Origin: Chloroflexota bacterium
GTDB lineage: Bacteria > Chloroflexota > Anaerolineae > Anaerolineales > Anaerolineaceae
Length of the DNA stretch: 51,634 bases
Direction: 5' to 3'
Assembly: GCA_034189815.1 (NCBI GenBank)
Contig: JAXHUD010000001.1
Span: 1 to 51,634 of the forward strand
Shown here: positions 30,837 to 42,829 of the stretch, in pieces
Numbering within the stretch: the stretch's first letter is position 1
How the letters are laid out: each line of letters starts with the position of its first letter
Made by a program: the position numbers and the translations under genes
Notes under the pieces: generated by a model
Database searches by the model: none
What the model was told of the DNA's origin: nothing
Seen by the model: only the letters and a program-made list of their open reading frames with translations

Positions 30837-32249
30837 ATGCCAGATACTCATAAACTCACGTCTGAGTCGTTTTCAAATCCTGTAATTGAACGGAATGGGG
30901 AAATGGGGCGGGCAGCTTGTGACATGATGGCAGCCGCCATCGAGGCTGTGGATCCCTATAAATGTGTGTTGGAGAATGTTCAATTGACAAAAACGGAAAT
31001 CGTCATCGCAGGACAGACAATAAAGCGTGCTAAGATCGACAGGCTCAGCCTGATCGGTTTTGGCAAGGCGGCTGTTCCGATGGCAAAGGCCGTTGTGGAC
31101 TCCTTGGGCGATCTGCTCAGCCTGGCCATCGTCGTCACCAAGGATGCAAAATTTAAAGCCGCGCAGGGCTATGGGGACATGTTGGAAGTCCTGCTCGCTG
31201 GGCATCCGGTTCCAACCAAGGATTCTGTCGATTCGACTCAGGCGATTCTGGACCAATTGCCTGCCTTCACCGAGCGTGATCTGGTCCTGGTTGTGATCTC
31301 CGGCGGTGGGTCTGCTTTGTTTACCAGTCCTATGGCCGGGATCAGTTTGGGTGATATGCAGCAGCTAACGGAATCGCTTTTGAGGAGTGGTGCGGATATT
31401 CAGGAAATAAACACCCTTCGTAAACATCTGGATCAGGTTAAGGGCGGGCGTTTGGCTGCTTGGTTGAGCCCGGCGAAAGTGCATACCATGATCCTCTCGG
31501 ACGTAATTGGTGACCGGCTGGATATGATCGCTTCCGGTCCGACGGTTCCTGATCCGACGACGTTTGAAGATGCCTGGAAGGTGATCACTAAATACAACCT
31601 GGTTGACAATCTCCCCAGTACAATTCAGGATTTTCTGCTTGCTGGCAAGGCAGGAGAACAAGCCGAGACCCTAAAGCAGCCGCAGTTTGAAGAGATGCAG
31701 GTTGAAAACAATTTGATCGCCACGAATCTGAAAGCGGCCCTTGCGGCCCGAAAAAAAGCCGATGAATGGGGTTACAACTCCCTGGTGCTCTCGAACCATC
31801 TGACCGGACTAACCCCATCTGTGACCACCTTTATTTCAGGAATTATTCAGACCGAAATAGAAGCTGACCTGCCGGCAAAGAAACCTGCCTGTCTGATCTT
31901 CGGTGGTGAGACAACGGTGAAAGTTGTCGGCGACGGGAAGGGCGGCCGAAATCAGGATTTGGCTCTCCAGATGGTGCGTAAATTAGCTGTATATCAGGAA
32001 AAAGTGCTCTTTATTTCATTGGCGACGGATGGGGAAGACGGCCCAACGGATGCGGCGGGCGCCGCATCCGATGCCTTGGTCCTTCGCTATGGAACGTCGG
32101 AGATGGGGATGGAAATTGACACTTATATTTCTACGAATAATTCTTACCAGTATTTTGACCGGGTTGGTGGTTTAATCAGGATAGGAGCCACGGGTACCAA
32201 TGTTAATGACTTGATGTTTGTGCTGATTGGGTCTCCTGATATTAGCTAA
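30837..32249 (+). CDS. Glycerate 2-kinase, MOFRL family (GckA/TtuD type)
   Basis: GFGKAA, GHPVP, ISGGGSAL, RKHLDQVKGG, SDVIGD, IASGPT, GGETTV, GGRNQ, TDGEDG, TGTNVND. Confidence 0.92.
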   Translation: MPDTHKLTSESFSNPVIERNGEMGRAACDMMAAAIEAVDPYKCVLENVQLTKTEIVIAGQTIKRAKIDRLSLIGFGKAAVPMAKAVVDSLGDLLSLAIVVTKDAKFKAAQGYGDMLEVLLAGHPVPTKDSVDSTQAILDQLPAFTERDLVLVVISGGGSALFTSPMAGISLGDMQQLTESLLRSGADIQEINTLRKHLDQVKGGRLAAWLSPAKVHTMILSDVIGDRLDMIASGPTVPDPTTFEDAWKVITKYNLVDNLPSTIQDFLLAGKAGEQAETLKQPQFEEMQVENNLIATNLKAALAARKKADEWGYNSLVLSNHLTGLTPSVTTFISGIIQTEIEADLPAKKPACLIFGGETTVKVVGDGKGGRNQDLALQMVRKLAVYQEKVLFISLATDGEDGPTDAAGAASDALVLRYGTSEMGMEIDTYISTNNSYQYFDRVGGLIRIGATGTNVNDLMFVLIGSPDIS

Positions 32250-32482
32250 TCTTGGGTCCGTAAATTATACGCGAAAACGATTTGACGAGCTAATTGCCGA
32301 TCAGATTCGTTCAATTTATTGGTGATATTTGATAAATGCCGTATGACGATGGACTGCGGTATGTTCAATGTGCTTGCTATATCGCTGACCGGTTCAGATT
32401 TCTTAGCTGCGGTCAGGACCGTGACTTCTCTCGGCGTGAGCTGCCGGTGGGTCGTGGTCTCAAAAATCATCTGTCGTCTCAT
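32246..32482 (-). CDS. Small stand-alone LuxR/GerE-type HTH protein
   Basis: LTPREVTVL...DIASTLNIPQSIVIRHLSNITNKL; AGAGGT RBS. Confidence 0.65.
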   Translation of the reverse strand: MRRQMIFETTTHRQLTPREVTVLTAAKKSEPVSDIASTLNIPQSIVIRHLSNITNKLNESDRQLARQIVFAYNLRTQD

Positions 32483-32839: not shown

Positions 32840-33736
32840 ATGGAAAAGATTGCGTATGGTGGTTGGGAGAATTGTTTTCGGTTGACAAATGGTAAAGTTG
32901 ACCTGGTTGTCACAGGTGATGTCGGACCTCGGATCATCCGATTTGGATTTGTCGGCAAACCGAACATGTTCAAGGAGTTCGCAGACCAGCTTGGAAAAAC
33001 GGAGGCGGATGAATGGACCTCGTTCGGGGGTCATCGTTTATGGCACGCCCCTGAGGCTATGCCGCGGACGTATTTCATTGACATCGAACCCGTCCTGGTG
33101 CAGGAGATTGAAGACGGATTGGTCGTTACCCAAAAACCCGAACCAACGACGGGCATCCAGAAACAAATTGAAATTAAAATCTCCCCCGATAAACCCGAAG
33201 TGCAATTGAATCATATTCTGATCAACCATGGGCTTTGGCCGGTTGAGACGGCGCCCTGGGCGATTTCGATGATGGCGCCTGGTGGGGTGGGGATTATGAC
33301 CTTGCCGCCCCGTGGCCCGCACCCTGAAAATATGCTGCCAACGAGCCAGCTCTCCATTTGGCCATATACAAACCTTGGTGACCCGCGTTGGGTGTTAGGT
33401 GAGCGCTATATCCTGCTTAAACAAGATCCTGAAAATGCGGAACCTCAGAAAATAGGCGTCCTGGCAACGGATGGCTGGGCTGGTTATGCCAACCATAACA
33501 CCTTATTCGTCAAACAGGCCCCGCTCCAATTCAATGCCACCTATCCCGATTTGGGCGCAAATTTTGAATTGTTCACGAACGAAGAAATCCTGGAAGTCGA
33601 AAGCCTGGGGCCGGTTGAAATTATCCCGCCGAAAGGACAAATTGACCACATGGAACACTGGACCCTGATCGCGGATGTCCCGCAGCCCAAAACCGAAGCG
33701 GACGTGGTCGAGAAGATCATCCCCTTGCTGAGTTAA
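32840..33736 (+). CDS. Hypothetical protein, DUF4380 / aldose-epimerase-like beta-sandwich
   Basis: VGPRIIRF, GGHRLWHAPE, YPD.G...E.FTN, EVESLGP pattern; AGGAG RBS. Confidence 0.65.
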   Translation: MEKIAYGGWENCFRLTNGKVDLVVTGDVGPRIIRFGFVGKPNMFKEFADQLGKTEADEWTSFGGHRLWHAPEAMPRTYFIDIEPVLVQEIEDGLVVTQKPEPTTGIQKQIEIKISPDKPEVQLNHILINHGLWPVETAPWAISMMAPGGVGIMTLPPRGPHPENMLPTSQLSIWPYTNLGDPRWVLGERYILLKQDPENAEPQKIGVLATDGWAGYANHNTLFVKQAPLQFNATYPDLGANFELFTNEEILEVESLGPVEIIPPKGQIDHMEHWTLIADVPQPKTEADVVEKIIPLLS

Positions 33737-33779: not shown

Positions 33780-33811
33780 AAACGCCGGTGATTAATATTA
33801 ACCGGCGTTTT
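33780..33811. terminator. Bidirectional intrinsic terminator closing the ftsZ-like operon
   Basis: AAACGCCGGT-gattaatatta-ACCGGCGTTTT. Confidence 0.8.
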
Positions 33812-33860: not shown

Positions 33861-34085
33861 TTAATGCAGGGGGAAGAAGCCGACGACCTTCCCAATCAGC
33901 AGACCTGAGAGAAAGCCAACAGCGCCCCAAAGTACGGCGAGAATGATGACGAAGCCAGGTTTGGTGTGCAGAACATGATAGATGGCCTTTCTAATTCGCA
34001 GGATGGGGCCACCAACGGCCATGATTGGTGTGATGGCATCCCAAAATTTAATTTCTGCGCGTTTTGTAATTTTATCGAACATCAT
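33861..34085 (-). CDS. Small membrane protein (74 aa)
   Basis: GGAAGGA RBS, 11 nt after the upstream stop; amphipathic N-terminus and C-terminal Gly-rich TM helix. Confidence 0.65.
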   Translation of the reverse strand: MMFDKITKRAEIKFWDAITPIMAVGGPILRIRKAIYHVLHTKPGFVIILAVLWGAVGFLSGLLIGKVVGFFPLH

Positions 34086-34096
34086 GAATGTCCTTC

Positions 34097-34315
34097 CTAA
34101 CGGCTGGTCGAAGTTTTGAGGATGCGACCCTGCTCATCGGCGACAACCCGGATCGTTTGGGGAATGCTCTTACCATCGGGCGTTTTCCCGCTCCCGGAAA
34201 AGATCAGCAGATAACGCCCGCTGCTTTGTGAGCTGACCCTTGGGCGTGTTGATTTGAGCGAAGGGAAGCGACGATACACTTTTTGGCACACTTTTTCGAT
34301 TGCGCTTCGGTCCAT
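34097..34315 (-). CDS. Small basic hypothetical protein (72 aa)
   Basis: Starts 2 nt after ftsZ stop with AGAGG RBS; helix followed by beta-strand pattern. Confidence 0.7.
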   Translation of the reverse strand: MDRSAIEKVCQKVYRRFPSLKSTRPRVSSQSSGRYLLIFSGSGKTPDGKSIPQTIRVVADEQGRILKTSTSR

Positions 34316-34317
34316 GG

Positions 34318-35517
34318 TTAGCCTCTGATACGTTTTCTTAGGAATGCAGGGACATCCAGGTCTGACGTGTTGACCACCGGCGAACTGGCCGCATATGAAT
34401 AGGCGGCTGCGGTGTCCCGTTTGGTGTGGATGGGGGTGTTTTGTTCCCTACGGGGGGTGGGTTCTCTTTTGGGTTCCTCGGGCAGTGTCAGTTCCGCCAG
34501 ATAGCGTTCAGCACCGGGGATCGCCTTTTCGATCGGTAAGGCGCCCAGGCCGGTGACGATCAGGATCGCCTGAGCTCGGTTGCTCAGATTTGCGTCGTTG
34601 ATGACCCCGGGGATGATCTCGGTATTTGCGCCTGCCTGGGCGTGCAGGTGTGAGAGGGTCTCAGTGACCTCTGCAAAGGTCAAATCATCGCCGCCGGTGA
34701 AGTTGGCAATGATGCCTGTGGCGGATGTCAGATCGATATCCTCCAAAAGCGGGTGATGCAATGCCTGATTGAGCGCATGCATGGCTTTGCCTTCGCCTTC
34801 ACCGGTACCAATGGACATCAGCGCACCGCCGCCCAGTTCCATCACGTGGCGGATGTGGGCAAAATCAACATTGATCAGACCGGTTTCGGTCAGCAACTCG
34901 GTAATGCCCTGCACACCCTGCCGAAGGACATCGTCGGCCAATTGGAAAGCCATTTCAAGCGATAGGTCATCGGGAGCGACTTCCAGAAGGCGGTCGTTGG
35001 GAACCGTGATCATCGTGTGGGTGAACTGGCGTAACTTTTGCAAGCCGACGACTGCATTTTTTTGCCGGCGGCCCATCTCGAATGAGAAGGGGGTTGTTAC
35101 AACGGCGATTGTGACTGCACCGATATGCTTGGCGACCCGAGCGGCAACGGGTATGGACCCGGTGCCGGTCCCGCCGCCCATCCCGGCAGCGAGAAAAACC
35201 ATATCCGCGCCGTCAAGGGCGCCTGCCAGGGTCTGGAAGCTCTCTTCAGCGGCGGATTCACCGATGGACGGGATGCCGCCGGCGCCGAGGCCGCGAGTGC
35301 TTTTCGGACCCAACTGGATGTTCACATCAGCCAGGGAACTATCGAGGGCTTGTTTATCGGTGTTGCAGGCGATGAACTCTACCCCAGACATGCCAAATTC
35401 AATCATCCGATTAACAGCATTGCAGCCGCCGCCGCCGAGGCCAACAACTTTAATTTTCGGTGCAGCAGCTTCGATGGGTGTATGGGGTGTCACGCTGATG
35501 GGTTGAGTATCGTTCAT
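34318..35517 (-). CDS. ftsZ: FtsZ-family tubulin-like protein with atypical T7 loop (probable paralog)
   Basis: VVGLGGGGCNAVNRM, NTDKQAL, GLGAGG, GMGGGTGTG, PFSFE, C-terminal DLDVPAFLRK; T7 loop GLINVDFAHIR. Confidence 0.93.
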   Translation of the reverse strand: MNDTQPISVTPHTPIEAAAPKIKVVGLGGGGCNAVNRMIEFGMSGVEFIACNTDKQALDSSLADVNIQLGPKSTRGLGAGGIPSIGESAAEESFQTLAGALDGADMVFLAAGMGGGTGTGSIPVAARVAKHIGAVTIAVVTTPFSFEMGRRQKNAVVGLQKLRQFTHTMITVPNDRLLEVAPDDLSLEMAFQLADDVLRQGVQGITELLTETGLINVDFAHIRHVMELGGGALMSIGTGEGEGKAMHALNQALHHPLLEDIDLTSATGIIANFTGGDDLTFAEVTETLSHLHAQAGANTEIIPGVINDANLSNRAQAILIVTGLGALPIEKAIPGAERYLAELTLPEEPKREPTPRREQNTPIHTKRDTAAAYSYAASSPVVNTSDLDVPAFLRKRIRG

Positions 35518-35531
35518 TTTTACCTCTCACT

Positions 35532-36791
35532 TCAAAAAGTCATACCATGTAACTGTGTTGCAATTTCTATTCCCGATTGGGGAAGGACCTCCACCTGGCA
35601 ACCCGCCAGGCGAAGGGCATTGATTTTTTCTTCGGGGAAGAGCAATGGATCCGGGAAAACGGACACGCGTCTAGCTAAGATTGCTTCTGATACAGAGAAA
35701 CCAATGGTTGGTTGGAGCTGTTTGATGATGGGGCGGACTTTGTTAAGGACCACGTCTGACACACCCGATTCGTGGGCAGGTAGAAGGAGGTAGTGCTCGA
35801 TGGATTTGTCAGTTGCAGCCGATTTCGAGTCGTCCGGTACATCAACAACCTGGTCTGATTTGAAAATGCTCTGCAGGATCGGAAACGATAAGTTACCTTC
35901 CATCAATTCCGTCAGGGTCTCCAGCGAGAAAACACAGCCCAGGATGGGCCCTGACAGTTTGGGCGCTTCGGGTTCGACCTCCCCCAGACAAGCGGAATGG
36001 ATCAACTGCAGCGTTTCGATTACCTGGTCCTTGTCTTGTGGAGGTCCAATCGGGCCGGGATTGCCGGCGTCAAGGATCAGGACGGTGGGTTTTCGACCGG
36101 TCACCCGGTTGAAAACGGCCCGGGCCCATTCATAGTTTTGAAACCCGATCTGGTCTTCCTGTCCGTCGGGCGTGAAGTATGGTTTGGAACCAGCCCACAT
36201 CTCCGGTCCACCTGAACCCCAATTAAGGGATTTATTAAAGGTGAAACCGAAGCTTGCCAAACCGATTTTTTCCAGTAGGGCGTCCATCTTGCGTTGTTTC
36301 AGCCCCTGCATGACCATTTCCAGAAAGGCAGTGTCCCAATAATCCCCACCGGGTTGTAATGGTGGCAGGACCGGGGTCAGTCCGATCTTTTCTGCATAAT
36401 TAGCAATGGGGATAAAACGATCGAGGAAATGATCAATCAGGTGATCGTAATGCCAGCCGGCAGCCGGCCAGGCGGATTTTGTGTTGGGCTTTTCGCCAAG
36501 GATAATAAATTGAACATCCCATTTCGCATAAGCATCAAGAATCACTACCAAGCTATTGAATTGTCGGGCGAGGGGCAGTTCCCCTTTGAAGTGTACGATC
36601 GGTTCCAGCCCGTTTTTCCTGGCGGTCTGGAAAACGTCCTCGGGAATGGCGCGATCGAAACCGGATTCGAGAACGACCTGGGTTGCCCCAAGTTGCCTAA
36701 GGATGGGGAACCAGGTCTCCACGCGCTTACGAACGAGGTATTCCCGAGAGGTGAAATATGAAAAACCAATATTTTGTTTTACTTTAGCCAT
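35532..36791 (-). CDS. Hypothetical protein: degenerate GH-like TIM barrel plus small C-terminal alpha/beta domain
   Basis: 419-aa ORF 14 nt upstream of ftsZ; alternating beta/alpha pattern with GEKPN and LILDAG at positions resembling clan GH-A catalytic motifs (fold is inference). Confidence 0.6.
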   Translation of the reverse strand: MAKVKQNIGFSYFTSREYLVRKRVETWFPILRQLGATQVVLESGFDRAIPEDVFQTARKNGLEPIVHFKGELPLARQFNSLVVILDAYAKWDVQFIILGEKPNTKSAWPAAGWHYDHLIDHFLDRFIPIANYAEKIGLTPVLPPLQPGGDYWDTAFLEMVMQGLKQRKMDALLEKIGLASFGFTFNKSLNWGSGGPEMWAGSKPYFTPDGQEDQIGFQNYEWARAVFNRVTGRKPTVLILDAGNPGPIGPPQDKDQVIETLQLIHSACLGEVEPEAPKLSGPILGCVFSLETLTELMEGNLSFPILQSIFKSDQVVDVPDDSKSAATDKSIEHYLLLPAHESGVSDVVLNKVRPIIKQLQPTIGFSVSEAILARRVSVFPDPLLFPEEKINALRLAGCQVEVLPQSGIEIATQLHGMTF

Positions 36792-36832
36792 GGCAAACCC
36801 TTTATTACGAGAAAACGGTCTGCTCGATACGG

Positions 36833-36848
36833 TGCAAGGGTTATGCCA
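36833..36848 (-). promoter_or_regulatory. Sigma54 (RpoN) -24/-12 promoter
   Basis: Minus strand TGGCATAACCCTTGCA with exact GG-N10-GC spacing, about 43 nt upstream of ATG 36791. Confidence 0.7.
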
Positions 36849-36886
36849 GATTATTCAATCCAACGTATTCACTTAAAAACGTTATC

Positions 36887-36895
36887 TGCTATAAT
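36887..36895 (+). promoter_or_regulatory. Extended -10 promoter, probably leaderless transcript
   Basis: TGcTATAAT 8 nt before ATG 36904, no Shine-Dalgarno. Confidence 0.6.
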
Positions 36896-36903
36896 CTCTT
36901 ACT

Positions 36904-37860
36904 ATGATACTTGTCACTGGAGGGACCGGATTTATTGGTAATGTGCTGATCCGGCACCTTTCAAACCTTGGATACTCAATTAAACTCCTCATTCGTCCCT
37001 CAAAAGACACACCAAACCTTCCTCGGGGAATCCCGCTGGAGATCGCGGTTGCCAGCTTGAGCGATGAACGGGGTTTGCGAGCGGCCATGAAGGATGTGGA
37101 TGTGGTGTTTCACCTGGCGACTGCCGAGTCCTTTGGCAGGCAAGCCCAGCTCGAGAAAGTGGATATCCGCGGTACGGAGGCGGTTGTGCAAGCTGCCACC
37201 CGTGCAAACGTAAGCCGATTTGTCTACCTCAGTCACCTCGGGTCAGATCGCATCTCAGCTTATCCGCTCTTGAAAGCGAAAGGCATCGCCGAACATTATG
37301 TTCGTGAATCGGGGTTGTCATATACGGTTTTTCGGTCAGCCCTCGTCTACGGCGAACGGGACCATTTCACAAATGGATTGGCTTTCCTGCTCAAAGCCTC
37401 ACCGGGATTGGTTCTGCTGCCTGATAATGGTTCCGCTGTCCTCCAGCCAATTTGGGTTGAGGACCTGGTGACAACCCTGACCTGGGCTCTGGATATGCCG
37501 GACACGATTAACCAGACGATTGAGATTGGTGGCCCGGAATATTTGACCTTTAGGGAGATTTGCAAATTGATCGCCAGAAAGCTTTCCATCAACCGGGCTT
37601 ATGTAAATACCTCTCCGGTTTTTCTAAATATCCTGACCGAAGTCATAGAAATATTCATGCCCGCTTTTCCGACCTCCGTTTTCTGGCTGGACTATCTGGC
37701 AACGAATCGTACTGCCAGCCTGGATGTCTTACCCAGCCAGTTTAACCTGCTGCCTGCCAAGATGAGTCAGCGCTTGGGGTATCTGGAAGGTAAGCGCTTC
37801 CGCCGGAATTGGTGGCGGATTATTAAAAAAAGAAAGCGAGAACCCATTCGATGGGAGTAA
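36904..37860 (+). CDS. Atypical SDR / NAD(P)-binding epimerase family protein (NDUFA9-like)
   Basis: ILVTGGTGFIG, VVFHLA, RFVYLS, QPIWVEDL, IEIGGPE. Confidence 0.85.
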   Translation: MILVTGGTGFIGNVLIRHLSNLGYSIKLLIRPSKDTPNLPRGIPLEIAVASLSDERGLRAAMKDVDVVFHLATAESFGRQAQLEKVDIRGTEAVVQAATRANVSRFVYLSHLGSDRISAYPLLKAKGIAEHYVRESGLSYTVFRSALVYGERDHFTNGLAFLLKASPGLVLLPDNGSAVLQPIWVEDLVTTLTWALDMPDTINQTIEIGGPEYLTFREICKLIARKLSINRAYVNTSPVFLNILTEVIEIFMPAFPTSVFWLDYLATNRTASLDVLPSQFNLLPAKMSQRLGYLEGKRFRRNWWRIIKKRKREPIRWE

Positions 37861-39305
37861 ACACTGTCTGCGTCCATGCCCACTTCTATCAGCCGCCCCG
37901 AGAAGACCCGCTATCCGGTTTAATTCCGGACGAAAACGGTGCCGAACCTTTCAGAAACTGGAATGAACGGATTCATTCGGAGTGTTATAAGCCGAATGCG
38001 GAATTGGGAAATTTTGCCAAGGTTAGCTTCAACTTCGGGCCAACAATCCTGCGCTGGATGGAGGAGTTTGATCCTCAGACCTATCAGACGATTATCGCCC
38101 AGGAACGGGAAAATTACGAGCACTTCGGAGTGGGGAACGGGATGGCGCAGGCATATAACCATGTTATCCTCCCGCTGGCTTCGACCCGAGATAAGGAAAC
38201 GCAAATCAAGTGGGGCATCGCCGATTTCAAACACCGCTTTGGGCATGACCCGGAGGGGATGTGGCTGCCTGAGACGGCCGTTGATCTGGAGACGTTGACG
38301 CTGCTGGCGGATAACCAGATCCGGTTCACCGTCCTGGCGCCCTGGCAGATCGAAAGCGATGAGCCCTTGTCGGGCCAGGAACCCTATCTGATTGACCTGC
38401 CTGGGGGACGCAACCCGATGATCGTCTTCTTGTATCACCAGGGGCTGAGCACGGCTGTCAGTTTTCAAAACAAAGCGACCCGCAATGCGGAGCAGTTTGT
38501 GGATGACTGGGTACAGCCGTCCTTCGACGCATTTGACGGCGATGGCGATCATTTGATGTTGATTGCCTCTGACGGCGAGCTGTACGGTCATCACAAGACG
38601 TTCAGGGATAAATTCCTGGCCCATATGCTTAATGGCGCTTTGCATTATCGCGATTTTGAGATCACTTATCCGGGGCTATGGCTGCAGCGCCATCAACCGA
38701 GGAAGGTCGTCAAGCTTAATGAATACACATCCTGGAGCTGCCATCATGGCATTACCCGCTGGATGGGCGAGTGTGACTGCACACCCGGCGCTTCGTGGAA
38801 AGCACCGCTGCGCTGGGGGATGGATAAGCTGTCCGAAGCGCTGGACCAACAATATCAATCCTATATGGCCCGTTTCACGGATGATGTTTGGGGATTGCGG
38901 AATGAATACATCACCGCGTTCCTTGGAGATAGGGCGTTGAACACCTTGCTCGAAAAATATATTACGAAACACCTGCGTGGAGAAGACAGAATCAAAATAA
39001 GAATGCTGCTGGCGGCACAATACGAACGCCAGCGGATTTTCACTTCCTGCGGCTGGTTTTTTGAGAATTTTCACCGAATTGAACCACAGAATAATATCGC
39101 CTATGTTGCGCAGGCGATCTGGCTGACAAAACAGGTAACCGGGAAGGACCTGCAGCCGCGCGCTTTGGCGCTGCTCAAGAAAGTGAAGGATCCCAAGACT
39201 GGCTTGCGCGGTGACACGGTTTTTATTGAGAAATATCACCGGATGCAGGCGTTTTCTGAAGATGAAACGCCTTATTTCAACCCGGCCAGTAGTTTTTCAA
39301 CCTGA
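37851..39305 (+). CDS. Glycoside hydrolase family 57 / DUF3536 protein
   Basis: HAHFYQPPRE, SFNFGPT, YNHVILPL, GMWLPET, SDGELYGHH, SWSCHHG, FTSCGWFF. Confidence 0.9.
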   Translation: MGVNTVCVHAHFYQPPREDPLSGLIPDENGAEPFRNWNERIHSECYKPNAELGNFAKVSFNFGPTILRWMEEFDPQTYQTIIAQERENYEHFGVGNGMAQAYNHVILPLASTRDKETQIKWGIADFKHRFGHDPEGMWLPETAVDLETLTLLADNQIRFTVLAPWQIESDEPLSGQEPYLIDLPGGRNPMIVFLYHQGLSTAVSFQNKATRNAEQFVDDWVQPSFDAFDGDGDHLMLIASDGELYGHHKTFRDKFLAHMLNGALHYRDFEITYPGLWLQRHQPRKVVKLNEYTSWSCHHGITRWMGECDCTPGASWKAPLRWGMDKLSEALDQQYQSYMARFTDDVWGLRNEYITAFLGDRALNTLLEKYITKHLRGEDRIKIRMLLAAQYERQRIFTSCGWFFENFHRIEPQNNIAYVAQAIWLTKQVTGKDLQPRALALLKKVKDPKTGLRGDTVFIEKYHRMQAFSEDETPYFNPASSFST

Positions 39306-42300
39306 AATTCCGAATTTATCTCGGCGTTAAGGATGCTCTGAATGAGGTCATAGGCCTGGAAAAGGCTTTCAAAGGCCTCCGTCAGGCTTTTTTCCGGGTC
39401 GGAGATCAGTTGGACCAATCCAACCGTCATCATCCACCAAAGTAGCGACTCAAACGCTTCCTGGTTGAACCAAAGCACGTCTTCAAACCGATTGACGTTC
39501 AGGAAGCGCCGCACTTCTTCCGAAGCGAACCATCTTTTCGCCAGCGATAAGGGGGTCTTCTCATCGATTTGGTTCGTCCAATTTTGCTGGCTGATCAGTA
39601 GCTTGAGGATCGTCACCCCGCTCTGTGCCTGGCCTGTATCCAGCCCCAATGCTTCAAGCGTGCGTTGCACGTGGGCTGAAATGCCCCATTCATCCAGCCA
39701 ACTGCGGCTGATCTCGGCAAACTGCGGCTCAGTCGTGATCACCCGACCTAACAATCTCAGATCGTTCCAAAGCGTAAGCACATACCAAACAAAGGGATAA
39801 GAAACCAGGTTGGTTTGGATATAGTCCAATATGGCTTGATAACGTTTCGATCCTGGAAAGGGATAACGTTCTGCAAATACGGGCAACTTCAGAATCGCTT
39901 CAAGGCCGGCCGTCATCTCCCGGACGATGAGGTCAAGGTCCTGATGTCCATTCACATAGGTGTTGACGGACTGGATCATGGCTCTAAACGTGTTCGTCTG
40001 GACTTGCAGCAGATCCTGGGATAGCTTGGCTTTCTGGTCGGTCAGGCGGGATTGATAAACCGACCGGAGCATTTCAGGATTCACCAGCGCTCCCAACGGC
40101 TCCAGAACGGGGGCCATCCGCAGTTCTCGCAGGGCGTCATCGATACTGGGAACGCCGCTGCCGTTCAGAAGACCTGCCAGCCGGGCATATTGACCGGTTT
40201 CGTCATCCTGAAGTTCCTGAAAGTTCATAAATACATGATAGGCATAGGCGTCCAGCGCCACGGAAAGTCCCTGGTCGCGGATCGCTTGGGAGGAACGGAT
40301 GTATTCCATGTCTGTGGGAATGTCTCTGAACATGACAAAACGAGCCGGTGAAGGTGTCAAACCCAGAGCCTCATGCAAACTTGCCTGCTCCAGGCGATTC
40401 GTTGTCTTATTCAGGAAGGTTGCGGCGGATTTGATCCGTCCCTGGACTGAGCCGAAATGGTTATGATAGACGACCAGGGCTCGGTCCCCCCCGTTGCTAT
40501 TAGAGTAGGCGAAGACGTTCTCATCCACCAGACCTTCATTTGTAATGAAATCATAAAGTTTGAAGTTCCGGATACCTGAGAAAATATCCCGCCGCTTGAG
40601 CAGTGGGAATATGTCATGCTGGTGGCGTTGGACCAGGGCGTTATCGGGTTCTTCGTCCCAATAGGGTCGGTAATATTCCATGCCGTATTTCTCGGAGTAG
40701 CCCTCAACCTGCCCATGTCCGAACATCGGCAGTCCCGGCATGGTTGACATCAGGGTGCAGATACCAAAGTACTTGTCCCCTTTGCCGAATTGCTCCACGG
40801 CTGTTTCCTCGTCGGGATTGTTCATAAAATTGACGTAGCGTTTGAGGATTTGCGGGTCAAATGTGAGCGTGTTCTTGATCAACTGTCGGTATTTTGCGTT
40901 TTCCTCGTTACGGAGCATATTCATGAAGGCGCTGTTATACACCCTGTGCATACCGAGCGTGCGGACGAAATAACCTTCCATCAGCCAGAATGCCTCGGCC
41001 AACAGCAATGTGTCGGGGACCTCCTGGGCGACCCGGTCTACAACTTCCCGCCAGAACTCTTTGGGGAAGGCAGCGTCGAATGCCGCCTGCGTCAGACCGT
41101 ATTCTGATCGGCTGGGGATCGCCCCGCCTGTGCCAGGCTTGGGAAACCAGAGCCGTTGGTAATGTTTCTTTGCCAGGGTCATCGCGGCATCAAAGCGGAT
41201 AATGGGGAACATGCGAGCGACATGCAGGATCGTCTGGATCACGGCCTCACGGACTTCATTTTGCAGATAGTCCAATTGCGCCGTGTCATTCCATGGCATG
41301 CTGGTGCCGTCATTGCCGTGATAAATAAACCGTGTATCGCCGCTGCGCCGGTCAATTCGTTTGAAGACCACCGCCGCGTCGGAGCGGTCATAGTAGTGAT
41401 CTTCGATGAAGATCCCGACATTCTCGTTCGGACTCAGGTCTGGGCCGTTGAAAGTGTAGGAGGGGAAGGGGCTGTGTGGGAGGCCGATGAACCAATTAGG
41501 GTGTTCTATCAGCCAGTCGGAGTCGATACCCATGTGGTTGGGCACCATATCGCTGGCCAGCCGGATGCCGCGCTGGCGGGCGCGATCCCGCAGGCCTTGA
41601 TAAGCCTCATAGCCGCCCAAATCAGCAGCGATGGCATAATTCCGCAGCGAATAGGCTGAGGCCACCGCTTCAGGGTTGCCGCAGAGTTGTTTGATCCGCT
41701 TTGAGGCGTTACTGCGCTCCCAGAGCCCGATCAGCCAAAGCCCGTTAAAACCTTGGCTGGCTAATTTATCCAGTTCTTCATCTGGAATCTGATCCAGACG
41801 GTTGATTTCACGATGATAGGCTTTGGATAGCTGATAGAGCCAGACATAGGCATTCTTGGCAACCATCACCGTGCGGGTCATCCAATCGCTGTCTGCGGAG
41901 TAGTTTTCTTCATCCAGCGCGAACGCATCGTAACTAGGGACTTGGGTCGGTCCGGGGCTTAGAAAAACTTTGGTTTGCTCTTCCTTCAGCACGTCCAGAG
42001 AGCTGAGTAGACGATATAGATACTCCCCGATCAGGTCCCGCCAGCGGTCGCGGATGAACGCCAGCTGGCCGGCCAATGAATGGGGGACTTCGATGGCAGG
42101 GCTTCGGAGCATGGTGATGAGGTCCTGATCATCTGGCCCAAACACGGGTTGGTCTTCGAAGAAGCTTCTGAGTTCACTGATTAGTTTTTTATAGGCTGTC
42201 GTTTCGAGGAGGTCCGTATCGTCAAATAATTCCTGAAAAGGCGCGACTGCCGGGTTCTGGTTGGTGACCCAAAGCATGAGTAGTTCTTCCAGGGCGATCC

Positions 42301-42721
42301 AGCGATTGGGAATATCTTTGGTGCTGGTTTTGAGATATTCCTCGGGGGTCATATCCCCGGCAAAAACGGCTCTTGGAGGAAATTCACGGATAAATTGCAG
42401 AAGCGCTTGCTCAAGCTCGCTTTCAGCTAGATTCGCAGAGACGTGTTTTAAGGCTGTCGCCCAAATCTGTGGATCAATTTGCTCTCGATACCTGGAAACC
42501 ACCAGATGCAGGATCTCGTCAATCAGGCCCAGGGCGTTGATATCACCTGCCCGTATCGCTTGTTCAGGCTGGTTGATGACATCCCGCTGCTCGTTGATAT
42601 TAAAGGCGAAATCACGTGCAGCTTTCAGGTCCGCAAAGATTACGTTTCCGTCGAACTGGAATAAGCTTTGGTTGAAATGGTATTTTTCTCTGGCAGTGCG
42701 CGAGACATGAAATTCAAACAT
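39272..42721 (-). CDS. Large GH13 alpha-amylase family protein with N- and C-terminal extensions
   Basis: DMVPNH, RFDAAM, LAEAFW, FMNNPDE; start at ATG 42721 after GGAGGAGG. Confidence 0.88.
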   Translation of the reverse strand: MFEFHVSRTAREKYHFNQSLFQFDGNVIFADLKAARDFAFNINEQRDVINQPEQAIRAGDINALGLIDEILHLVVSRYREQIDPQIWATALKHVSANLAESELEQALLQFIREFPPRAVFAGDMTPEEYLKTSTKDIPNRWIALEELLMLWVTNQNPAVAPFQELFDDTDLLETTAYKKLISELRSFFEDQPVFGPDDQDLITMLRSPAIEVPHSLAGQLAFIRDRWRDLIGEYLYRLLSSLDVLKEEQTKVFLSPGPTQVPSYDAFALDEENYSADSDWMTRTVMVAKNAYVWLYQLSKAYHREINRLDQIPDEELDKLASQGFNGLWLIGLWERSNASKRIKQLCGNPEAVASAYSLRNYAIAADLGGYEAYQGLRDRARQRGIRLASDMVPNHMGIDSDWLIEHPNWFIGLPHSPFPSYTFNGPDLSPNENVGIFIEDHYYDRSDAAVVFKRIDRRSGDTRFIYHGNDGTSMPWNDTAQLDYLQNEVREAVIQTILHVARMFPIIRFDAAMTLAKKHYQRLWFPKPGTGGAIPSRSEYGLTQAAFDAAFPKEFWREVVDRVAQEVPDTLLLAEAFWLMEGYFVRTLGMHRVYNSAFMNMLRNEENAKYRQLIKNTLTFDPQILKRYVNFMNNPDEETAVEQFGKGDKYFGICTLMSTMPGLPMFGHGQVEGYSEKYGMEYYRPYWDEEPDNALVQRHQHDIFPLLKRRDIFSGIRNFKLYDFITNEGLVDENVFAYSNSNGGDRALVVYHNHFGSVQGRIKSAATFLNKTTNRLEQASLHEALGLTPSPARFVMFRDIPTDMEYIRSSQAIRDQGLSVALDAYAYHVFMNFQELQDDETGQYARLAGLLNGSGVPSIDDALRELRMAPVLEPLGALVNPEMLRSVYQSRLTDQKAKLSQDLLQVQTNTFRAMIQSVNTYVNGHQDLDLIVREMTAGLEAILKLPVFAERYPFPGSKRYQAILDYIQTNLVSYPFVWYVLTLWNDLRLLGRVITTEPQFAEISRSWLDEWGISAHVQRTLEALGLDTGQAQSGVTILKLLISQQNWTNQIDEKTPLSLAKRWFASEEVRRFLNVNRFEDVLWFNQEAFESLLWWMMTVGLVQLISDPEKSLTEAFESLFQAYDLIQSILNAEINSEFQVEKLLAGLK

Positions 42722-42829
42722 AGGGCGGTTGCTCCTCCTCCAAAACAAGTCCGATTCGAATTATACTCGCATCATCGCGCCTACTAAAAGAAAACGCCGC
42801 CCGAAGGTTACTGATTGGGTTCATGAAAA

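What the first reader, a model, noticed from the sequence alone, without database searches (positions are those of the whole stretch)
33861..36848. Candidate undescribed system: sigma54-driven four-gene operon built around a variant FtsZ
Seen: four tightly packed minus-strand genes (gaps 14, 2 and 11 nt) encoding a 419-aa GH-like protein, FtsZ, a 72-aa basic protein and a 74-aa TM protein. A sigma54-type promoter lies upstream and a terminator (33780-33811) downstream; no ftsA, ftsQ, mur or sepF genes are adjacent. Established: vegetative ftsZ normally sits in the dcw cluster or next to ftsA/sepF under housekeeping sigma factors, whereas sigma54 needs a dedicated enhancer-binding activator and so implies conditional expression. 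Inference: an inducible second cytoskeletal or septation module (for example filament fragmentation, differentiation or division inhibition), in which the small TM protein could be a membrane anchor and the pseudo-GH a glycan-binding scaffold.
Basis: partly seen in the sequence, partly recalled or inferred. Interest (0 to 1): 0.85.

Follow-up and report, generated by a model that had tools for sequence, protein, structure and literature searches.

The report
Hidden sigma-54 second FtsZ division module
Besides its ordinary cell-division gene, this Chloroflexota bacterium carries a second, conserved ftsZ whose catalytic aspartate is a histidine, in a four-gene block behind a sigma-54-type promoter sequence shared by most relatives, so it likely builds slow, stable filaments for a conditionally switched-on developmental division programme that I could not find described.

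Summary
Confirmed and larger than reported. The four genes, gaps, sigma-54 site and hairpin are present. The genome also has a canonical ftsZ beside ftsA, rpoN, and one activator lacking a DNA-binding domain. The operon's FtsZ2 is an old paralog under purifying selection. It keeps the GTP-binding motifs and the C-terminal peptide, but the T7 catalytic Asp (B. subtilis D213) is His in 89 of 95 sequences. ftsZ follows the GH-like gene in 72 of 72 assessable loci; 66 of 80 have the promoter (control 1%). In other families the block ends a cluster of rpoN, kinase, activator, giant TPR and TPR-C25 protease; four lineages lack both rpoN and the module's 72-aa marker gene. The 72-aa protein is a free copy of that protease's C-terminal domain. 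The 419-aa protein is a probable pseudo-glycosidase. In other orders the cluster adds amidase, LysM, SpoIID, MraZ and DivIVA-like genes. Best reading: an inducible developmental septation and wall-remodelling programme (0.5); untested experimentally. The scan noted this system on other DNA; two notes called it the main ftsZ, which is wrong here.

The parts
36833..36848 (-). sigma-54-type -24/-12 promoter sequence
   Evidence: same position in 66 of 80 homologous loci, 9 more with a near match
35532..36791 (-). 419-aa probable pseudo-glycosidase: clan GH-A-like TIM barrel (about 1-318) plus a small alpha/beta C-terminal domain (about 325-419); no signal peptide seen by eye
   Evidence: model pLDDT 91; Z 18.3, rmsd 3.8, 270 aligned to 1w91; position 101 K/R/Q in 31 of 36; C-terminal domain TM 0.81 to Chloroflexota amidases, 0.63-0.65 to CW_binding_2 proteins
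34318..35517 (-). ftsZ2, full-length second FtsZ (399 aa), 45% identical to the dcw FtsZ of the same genome
   Evidence: own clade; dN/dS 0.04-0.07
35158..35178 (-). intact GGGTGTG nucleotide-binding motif (residues 114-120)
   Evidence: 92 of 95 unique FtsZ2 GGGTGTG, 3 GGGTGSG
34855..34857 (-). His221 codon at the T7-loop position of B. subtilis Asp213
   Evidence: alignment to 2vam; H 89, N 4, A 1, D 1 of 95 unique FtsZ2; D in 35 of 35 FtsZ1
34333..34362 (-). conserved C-terminal peptide DLDVPAFLRK, nearly identical to that of FtsZ1 (DLDVPAFLRR)
34097..34315 (-). 72-aa basic protein, helix plus four-stranded sheet; stand-alone homolog of the C-terminal domain of the TPR-C25 protease encoded at G000:C51
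   Evidence: model pLDDT 93; hhalign probability 91%, E 1e-6; genome search E 1.3e-4; alignment; atlas
33861..34085 (-). 74-aa protein with an amphipathic N-terminal part and one C-terminal hydrophobic helix
   Evidence: a small hydrophobic ORF follows the 72-aa gene in 33 of 38 loci; dN/dS 0.14-0.34
33780..33810 (-). terminator-like hairpin between the operon and the convergent mutarotase-like gene
   Evidence: z -3.5; a second hairpin at 33773-33748

Best explanation
This block encodes a second FtsZ with His in place of the T7 catalytic Asp and is likely the cytoskeletal arm of a sigma-54-gated developmental programme, in which FtsZ2 would form slow-turnover filaments that mark special septa for wall remodelling (for example breaking a filament into short dispersal or resting units). 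Shown: gene content, conservation, co-distribution with rpoN, the His substitution, selection, domain homologies. Inferred: (1) a PAS kinase phosphorylates the HTH-less activator, which fires all sigma-54 promoters, rpoN's own included, giving a switch; (2) FtsZ2 binds GTP and polymerises but hydrolyses slowly; (3) it docks on the single FtsA through its conserved C-terminal peptide; (4) the 72-aa protein links the module to the giant-TPR/TPR-C25 protease complex as adaptor or decoy; (5) the pseudo-glycosidase binds wall glycan; (6) wall enzymes of the same regulon finish separation.
For: Canonical ftsZ after ftsQ-ftsA on C209. FtsZ2 is one clade across the class, support 100, with dN/dS 0.04-0.07 against 0.06-0.10 for ftsZ1. 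His/Asn/Ala at the D213 position in 94 of 95; B. subtilis D213A is GTPase-deficient and gives stable, slow rings (PMC8079713 passages). Promoter position conserved. Cluster rpoN-kinase-activator-small TM-giant TPR-TPR/C25-GH-ftsZ2 in G048 and G049, with sigma-54 sites before rpoN and before the TPR-C25 gene. Of 201 genomes at least 90% complete: 151 have rpoN and the 72-aa gene, 32 neither (four lineages), 16 rpoN only, 2 the 72-aa gene only; TPR-C25 follows the same family pattern, 165 of 201; 5 of 5 tested rpoN-less genomes have one ftsZ. In other orders the cluster holds Amidase_2, LysM, SpoIID-domain, LCP, MraZ and DivIVA-like genes. In this genus conserved sigma-54 sites precede an M23 peptidase and a membrane protein. 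HTH-less CtcC with sigma-54 drives developmental conversion in Chlamydia (PMC7482065 passages).
Against: No expression, localisation or phenotype data. I found no report of a differentiated cell type in Anaerolineae; none was seen in Litorilinea (bioRxiv 10.1101/2025.08.19.671072 passages), which I did not test for the module. His at this position has not been assayed; the cited mutants are Ala. Asp is kept in G040 and in four other-order modules, so slow hydrolysis is not needed everywhere. The 72-aa gene is missing in some ftsZ2 carriers. The GH/TPR/C25 core occurs without ftsZ2 in five genomes of other classes, three of them without an rpoN match. The amidase and SpoIID fusions have no homolog of those domains in this genome. 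The activator loop reads NAFTGA rather than GAFTGA here. G039 and G045 have rpoN but no match to the rest.
Confidence: 0.5

Rival explanations
1. Division brake: FtsZ2 co-assembles with FtsZ1 or competes for FtsA and slows treadmilling when the sigma-54 circuit is on (stress, stationary phase, keeping filaments long).
For: Near-identical C-terminal peptide and one ftsA, no SepF match in a 92% complete genome. Co-expressed D213A slows constriction (PMC8079713 passages). Agrobacterium FtsZ1 overexpression blocks division (bioRxiv 10.1101/2025.09.29.679267 passages).
Against: A brake does not explain the amidase, SpoIID, LysM, MraZ and DivIVA-like genes in other-order clusters, nor Asp-keeping FtsZ2 there. 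32 fixed differences separate the two paralogs, many in the C-terminal domain, which would favour separate filaments (interface positions recalled).
Confidence: 0.22
2. Scaffold for a protease-driven envelope or cell-death programme: the TPR-C25 protease and pseudo-glycosidase are the core, and FtsZ2 is a static positioning filament (for example placing a lysing cell that breaks the filament).
For: The core is older than ftsZ2. His-Cys motifs NLHG and EACYG are present here and in 6 of 8 aligned proteins; Peptidase_C25 matches 6 of 8 members. The 72-aa protein is a free copy of the protease's last domain.
Against: FtsZ2 keeps the divisome-binding peptide in nearly all sequences shown; division regulators accompany it in other orders. 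The C25 match is weak, is absent for this genome's own copy, and has no solved relative by sequence.
Confidence: 0.15
3. Routine two-FtsZ division, as in archaea and chloroplasts: the circuit is active every cell cycle and FtsZ2 is a stabilising partner of FtsZ1.
For: Present in most of the order, with selection as strong as on ftsZ1.
Against: 32 near-complete genomes in four lineages lack rpoN and the 72-aa gene, those tested having one ftsZ; most other orders have one ftsZ; faster long-term change than FtsZ1.
Confidence: 0.13

Closest known systems
Canonical bacterial FtsZ (TIGR00065; B. subtilis 2vam)
   Same: Tubulin and FtsZ_C domains, GGGTGTG, T7 Asn and first Asp, top-face Thr and Phe (S. 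aureus T66, F138), linker, C-terminal peptide.
   Different: Second T7 Asp is His; outside the dcw cluster; a canonical copy coexists.
FtsZ paralogs of Hyphomicrobiales (Agrobacterium FtsZ1/FtsZ3, Bradyrhizobium duplicate)
   Same: Old, non-essential second ftsZ outside dcw, proposed to tune division (passages).
   Different: Most of those are truncated; this one is full length, in a fixed operon behind a sigma-54 site. The preprint has no occurrence of Chloroflex- or Anaerolin-.
Chlamydia CtcB-CtcC-sigma-54
   Same: Sensor kinase plus receiver-AAA activator without DNA-binding domain; a developmental regulon (passages).
   Different: There it controls conversion to infectious forms; here rpoN, kinase and activator form one unit with a sigma-54 site before rpoN, and the targets include an FtsZ.
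Sporulation septation in Streptomyces and Bacillus (recalled)
   Same: Developmentally induced FtsZ with dedicated wall enzymes; SpoIID and LysM domains occur in other-order clusters.
   Different: Those use the single vegetative FtsZ and sigma-70-family factors (recalled), not a dedicated paralog under sigma-54.
Clan GH-A glycosidases (GH39, GH128, GH5)
   Same: TIM-barrel fold, Z 15-18.
   Different: Both catalytic Glu positions appear lost; added small C-terminal domain; no Pfam match in 36 members.
Archaeal and chloroplast FtsZ1/FtsZ2 pairs
   Same: Two full-length paralogs with likely different dynamics (search listing and abstract starts).
   Different: Those both serve routine division; this paralog is lost with rpoN.

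Membership tests
FtsZ family | Tubulin/FtsZ GTPase domain plus FtsZ_C; TIGR00065 over cut-off | tested here: met
FtsZ family | Conserved C-terminal peptide | tested here: met
   DLDVPAFLRK
Canonical vegetative FtsZ | Both T7-loop catalytic Asp residues | tested here: not met
   His221 aligns to B. subtilis Asp213
Canonical vegetative FtsZ | Next to ftsA in the dcw cluster; sole copy | tested here: not met
   ftsA in 0 of 120 module loci; canonical copy on C209
FtsZ family | GTP-dependent polymerisation and ring formation | not testable with these tools
   needs biochemistry and imaging
Sigma-54 promoter | GG and GC at -24/-12, conserved in position, with rpoN and an activator in the genome | tested here: met
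Sigma-54 promoter | Transcript start about 12 nt downstream, dependent on RpoN | not testable with these tools
   no transcript data
HTH-less sigma-54 activators (CtcC type) | Receiver plus AAA domain, no HTH_8 | tested here: met
   390 aa, lid ends at 387, no HTH_8; G598's activator has one
Active clan GH-A glycosidase | (beta/alpha)8 barrel | tested here: met
Active clan GH-A glycosidase | Glu after strand 4 and Glu after strand 7 | tested here: not met
   position 101 Glu in 2 of 36; position 241 D16 A8 G5 R3 E2 K1 N1. Positions mapped from the recalled N-E-P motif and predicted strands, not by superposition; position 100 is D/E in 27 of 36
CW_binding_2 repeat (PF04122) | Pfam match and triple repeat | tested here: not met
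   no Pfam match; single domain, structural likeness only, TM 0.63-0.65
Peptidase C25 (partner at G000:C51) | PF01364 match and His-Cys dyad | tested here: inconclusive
   6 of 8 homologs match, own copy does not; motifs present; no solved relative by sequence
Endospore-type sporulation | Spo0A, sigma F/E/G/K, engulfment complex, coat | not tested
   only SpoIID and LysM domains seen, in other orders

The most novel reading that the evidence does not exclude
Anaerolineae have an unrecognised developmental life stage (fragmentation into dispersal units or a spore-like resting cell), run by a self-amplifying sigma-54 switch, a TPR-scaffolded caspase-like protease and a dedicated, naturally GTPase-poor FtsZ: a division machine parallel to the vegetative divisome.
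Probability: 0.35. Interest if true: 0.92.

Novelty: new variant of a known kind. Interest (0 to 1): 0.78.

Why it matters
Anaerolineae are common filamentous anaerobes with no differentiation programme that I could find in print. A conserved, dispensable sigma-54 regulon with its own FtsZ predicts one and names the genes to watch. A full-length FtsZ with the catalytic Asp naturally replaced across an order tests directly whether treadmilling is needed for septation. Cultured carriers exist (Anaerolinea thermolimosa IMO-1, Leptolinea tardivitalis YMTK-2), so the tests are within reach.

Tried and rejected
Complex prediction of FtsZ2 with the 72-aa protein: no verdict, score 0.00 in two runs, controls not folded. 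RNA runs: none was listed. An apparent FtsZ2-72-aa fusion in G043 is an artefact of an N run across the stop. Genome-wide motif counts do not separate genomes with and without rpoN; the tool's reversed-pattern control is misleading here. Seven genus genomes lacking both rpoN and the operon are only 66-81% complete, are scattered on the FtsZ1 tree, and the two loci lie 70-150 kb apart in better assemblies, so they were not counted as losses. Fold search of the 72-aa model gave only Z under 8 (cystatin, NTF2, PepSY-like). The DivIVA-like gene beside coaD is in 41 of 41 genomes; a relaxed sigma-54 site precedes it in 11 of 25 with rpoN and 0 of 5 without: suggestive only. An HMM of the TM family printed no hit on the downstream LCP-like proteins, though G051's N-terminus looks similar by eye. 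The careful tree did not finish; quick and FastTree trees were used, with no outgroup from outside the class. Paper searches found no description of this system: Chloroflexi+FtsZ+Anaerolineae, 6 papers, two opened, neither on it in the passages seen; Chloroflexota+rpoN+sporulation, 1 unrelated (28); second-ftsZ terms, 95 papers, 30 listed, none on Chloroflexota by title (29); morphology terms (67); C25/TPR terms, 2 not opened (89); Anaerolinea+sigma54+FtsZ, 0 (108); sporulation terms (118); a D212 query, 0 (55). The library lacks most subscription journals, including species descriptions; no supplements were read, and those of PMC9871819 may show this clade.
Full report
Observation. The four minus-strand ORFs, the 14/2/11-nt gaps, the -24/-12 site at 36848-36833 and the hairpin at 33810-33780 are as described. 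Only the 399-aa protein matches a family, FtsZ. Named relatives of the first gene are titled Brevefilum, Anaerolinea, Leptolinea, Longilinea and Anaerolineaceae, which places the window in the Anaerolineales.

It is a second ftsZ. The genome (92% complete) has another, 45% identical, at the end of a mraY-murD-ftsW-murG-murC-murB-ddl-ftsQ-ftsA run on C209 (names assigned from the sequences by eye). It has one ftsA and no SepF match. ftsA lay just upstream of FtsZ1 in 23 of 34 short loci (250-nt flanks limit the rest) and 12 of 12 longer ones, and in 0 of 120 module loci. Trees split module and dcw FtsZ with support 100 in the order (78 rows, quick tree) and the class (55 rows, FastTree). dN/dS is 0.04-0.07 for ftsZ2, 0.06-0.10 for ftsZ1 and 0.06-0.35 for the three partners in unsaturated or near-saturated pairs.

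What is variant. FtsZ2 keeps GGGTGTG, the T7 Asn and first Asp, and the C-terminal peptide. His221 aligns with B. subtilis Asp213. Among 95 unique FtsZ2 the residue is His 89, Asn 4, Ala 1, Asp 1; among 35 FtsZ1 always Asp. Four further f16 copies have Asn and one His. T7 supplies catalytic residues to the next subunit (PMC5414002 passages), and D213A is GTPase-deficient and gives stable, thick rings (PMC8079713 passages). That His acts alike is inferred. Four other-order modules keep Asp and branch outside the His group, which has support 83.

Conservation. The GH-like gene is in 49 of 61 relatives, 41 of 44 near-complete; 551 stretches in the species collection encode a relative. In the best 80 of these, ftsZ follows in 72 of 72 with enough sequence and the 72-aa gene in 69 of 70. 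The promoter is within 300 nt in 66 of 80, against 73 of 7490 control windows; 9 of the other 14 have a near match. These 80 lean to close relatives.

The switch. The genome has rpoN with its own site upstream, a PAS kinase, and one full activator match, a receiver-AAA protein with no HTH, the layout of Chlamydia CtcC (PMC7482065 passages). In G048 and G049 these genes run straight into a small membrane protein, a giant TPR protein, a TPR-C25 protein and this operon; G060 shows the same order in part. In this genus the two halves lie apart, each with its own site. Of 201 genomes at least 90% complete, 151 have rpoN and the 72-aa gene, 32 neither (f15 23, f11 4, f5 3, f12 2), 16 rpoN only and 2 the 72-aa gene only (my tally). 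Of the 16, six were shown to carry ftsZ2, two lack it while their cluster runs off a contig end and eight were not checked. Five of five rpoN-less genomes tested have one ftsZ. These are four events, not 32. rpoN is common in the phylum (105 of 301), so it does not imply the module.

Partners. The 419-aa protein folds as a GH-A-like barrel (Z 18.3) with the catalytic positions apparently lost and a C-terminal domain shared with Chloroflexota amidases and resembling CW_binding_2. In five genomes of other classes it follows the TPR-C25 gene with no ftsZ in the fetched stretch. The 72-aa protein is a free copy of the last domain of the TPR-C25 protein, whose His and Cys motifs are present here. 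The 74-aa membrane protein follows in 33 of 38 loci; in most other families a degenerate LCP-like protein comes next (hhalign 97%). In other orders the cluster includes Amidase_2, LysM, SpoIID-fused GH-like, LCP, MraZ and DivIVA-like genes. In this genus, sites shared with relatives precede an M23 peptidase, a 358-aa membrane protein, an HD protein and an HD-domain pair.

Mechanism. I commit to a conditional developmental septation and wall-remodelling programme with a slow FtsZ (0.5). Rivals are a division brake (0.22), a protease-centred envelope or death programme with FtsZ2 as scaffold (0.15) and routine two-FtsZ division (0.13). Nothing here shows expression, binding or a phenotype.

Novelty. 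Second FtsZs and developmental sigma-54 regulons are each known; I found no paper on this combination (searches under Tried and rejected). Passages only were read of PMC8079713, PMC7482065, PMC5414002, PMC9871819, PMC11218635, PMC10608941 and bioRxiv 10.1101/2025.09.29.679267 and 10.1101/2025.08.19.671072; other papers were seen as listings. Earlier notes of this scan describe the same system on other DNA. I had the His substitution and the cluster before reading them. Two of them call it the main ftsZ, which the dcw copy contradicts for the genomes I examined.

Noticed in passing
G049; one copy at L088 about 10730: One identical 16-nt sigma-54-like sequence makes up 45 of the 70 motif matches in this genome; one copy lies inside a 476-aa ORF, so probably a multicopy mobile element.
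   Followed up: no
L318:9565-11851 (G566); also G597: A tandem pair of ftsZ genes outside the dcw cluster, unrelated to the module clade; the first is very divergent and lacks the usual C-terminal peptide.
   Followed up: partly
L323:7418-8590 (G610): A separate, more recent ftsZ duplicate that groups with its own dcw copy.
   Followed up: partly
L211, L212, L213, L214, L215: TPR-C25 and pseudo-glycosidase genes (after a giant TPR gene in at least three) in other classes without ftsZ2, three without an rpoN match: an older core of unknown function.
   Followed up: partly
L322:1091-4174 and L315:15570-17135: A second pseudo-glycosidase fused to a SpoIID domain, with no signal peptide seen by eye, although SpoIID normally works outside the membrane (recalled).
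   Followed up: no
window 36904-42748 (+) and 32840-33736 (+): A divergent NAD-epimerase / GH57 / amylase-like run with a sigma-70-like site at 36868-36895, and a convergent mutarotase-like gene; the epimerase side is conserved in the genus but varies in the order.
   Followed up: partly
window 32246-32482 (-): 78-aa stand-alone LuxR-type HTH protein.
   Followed up: no
L009 (G000:C32): Two sigma-54-like sites facing away from each other, before an ABC transporter binding protein and a TIM-barrel gene; not checked in relatives.
   Followed up: no
G004, G007, G008, G011, G013, G027, G036: Seven 66-81% complete genus genomes miss both rpoN and this operon; either one large region is lost in binning or these are real losses.
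   Followed up: partly
L248:4851-7117 and L263: LCP gene followed by a XerC-like recombinase; in G057 the pair has a sigma-54 site upstream.
   Followed up: no
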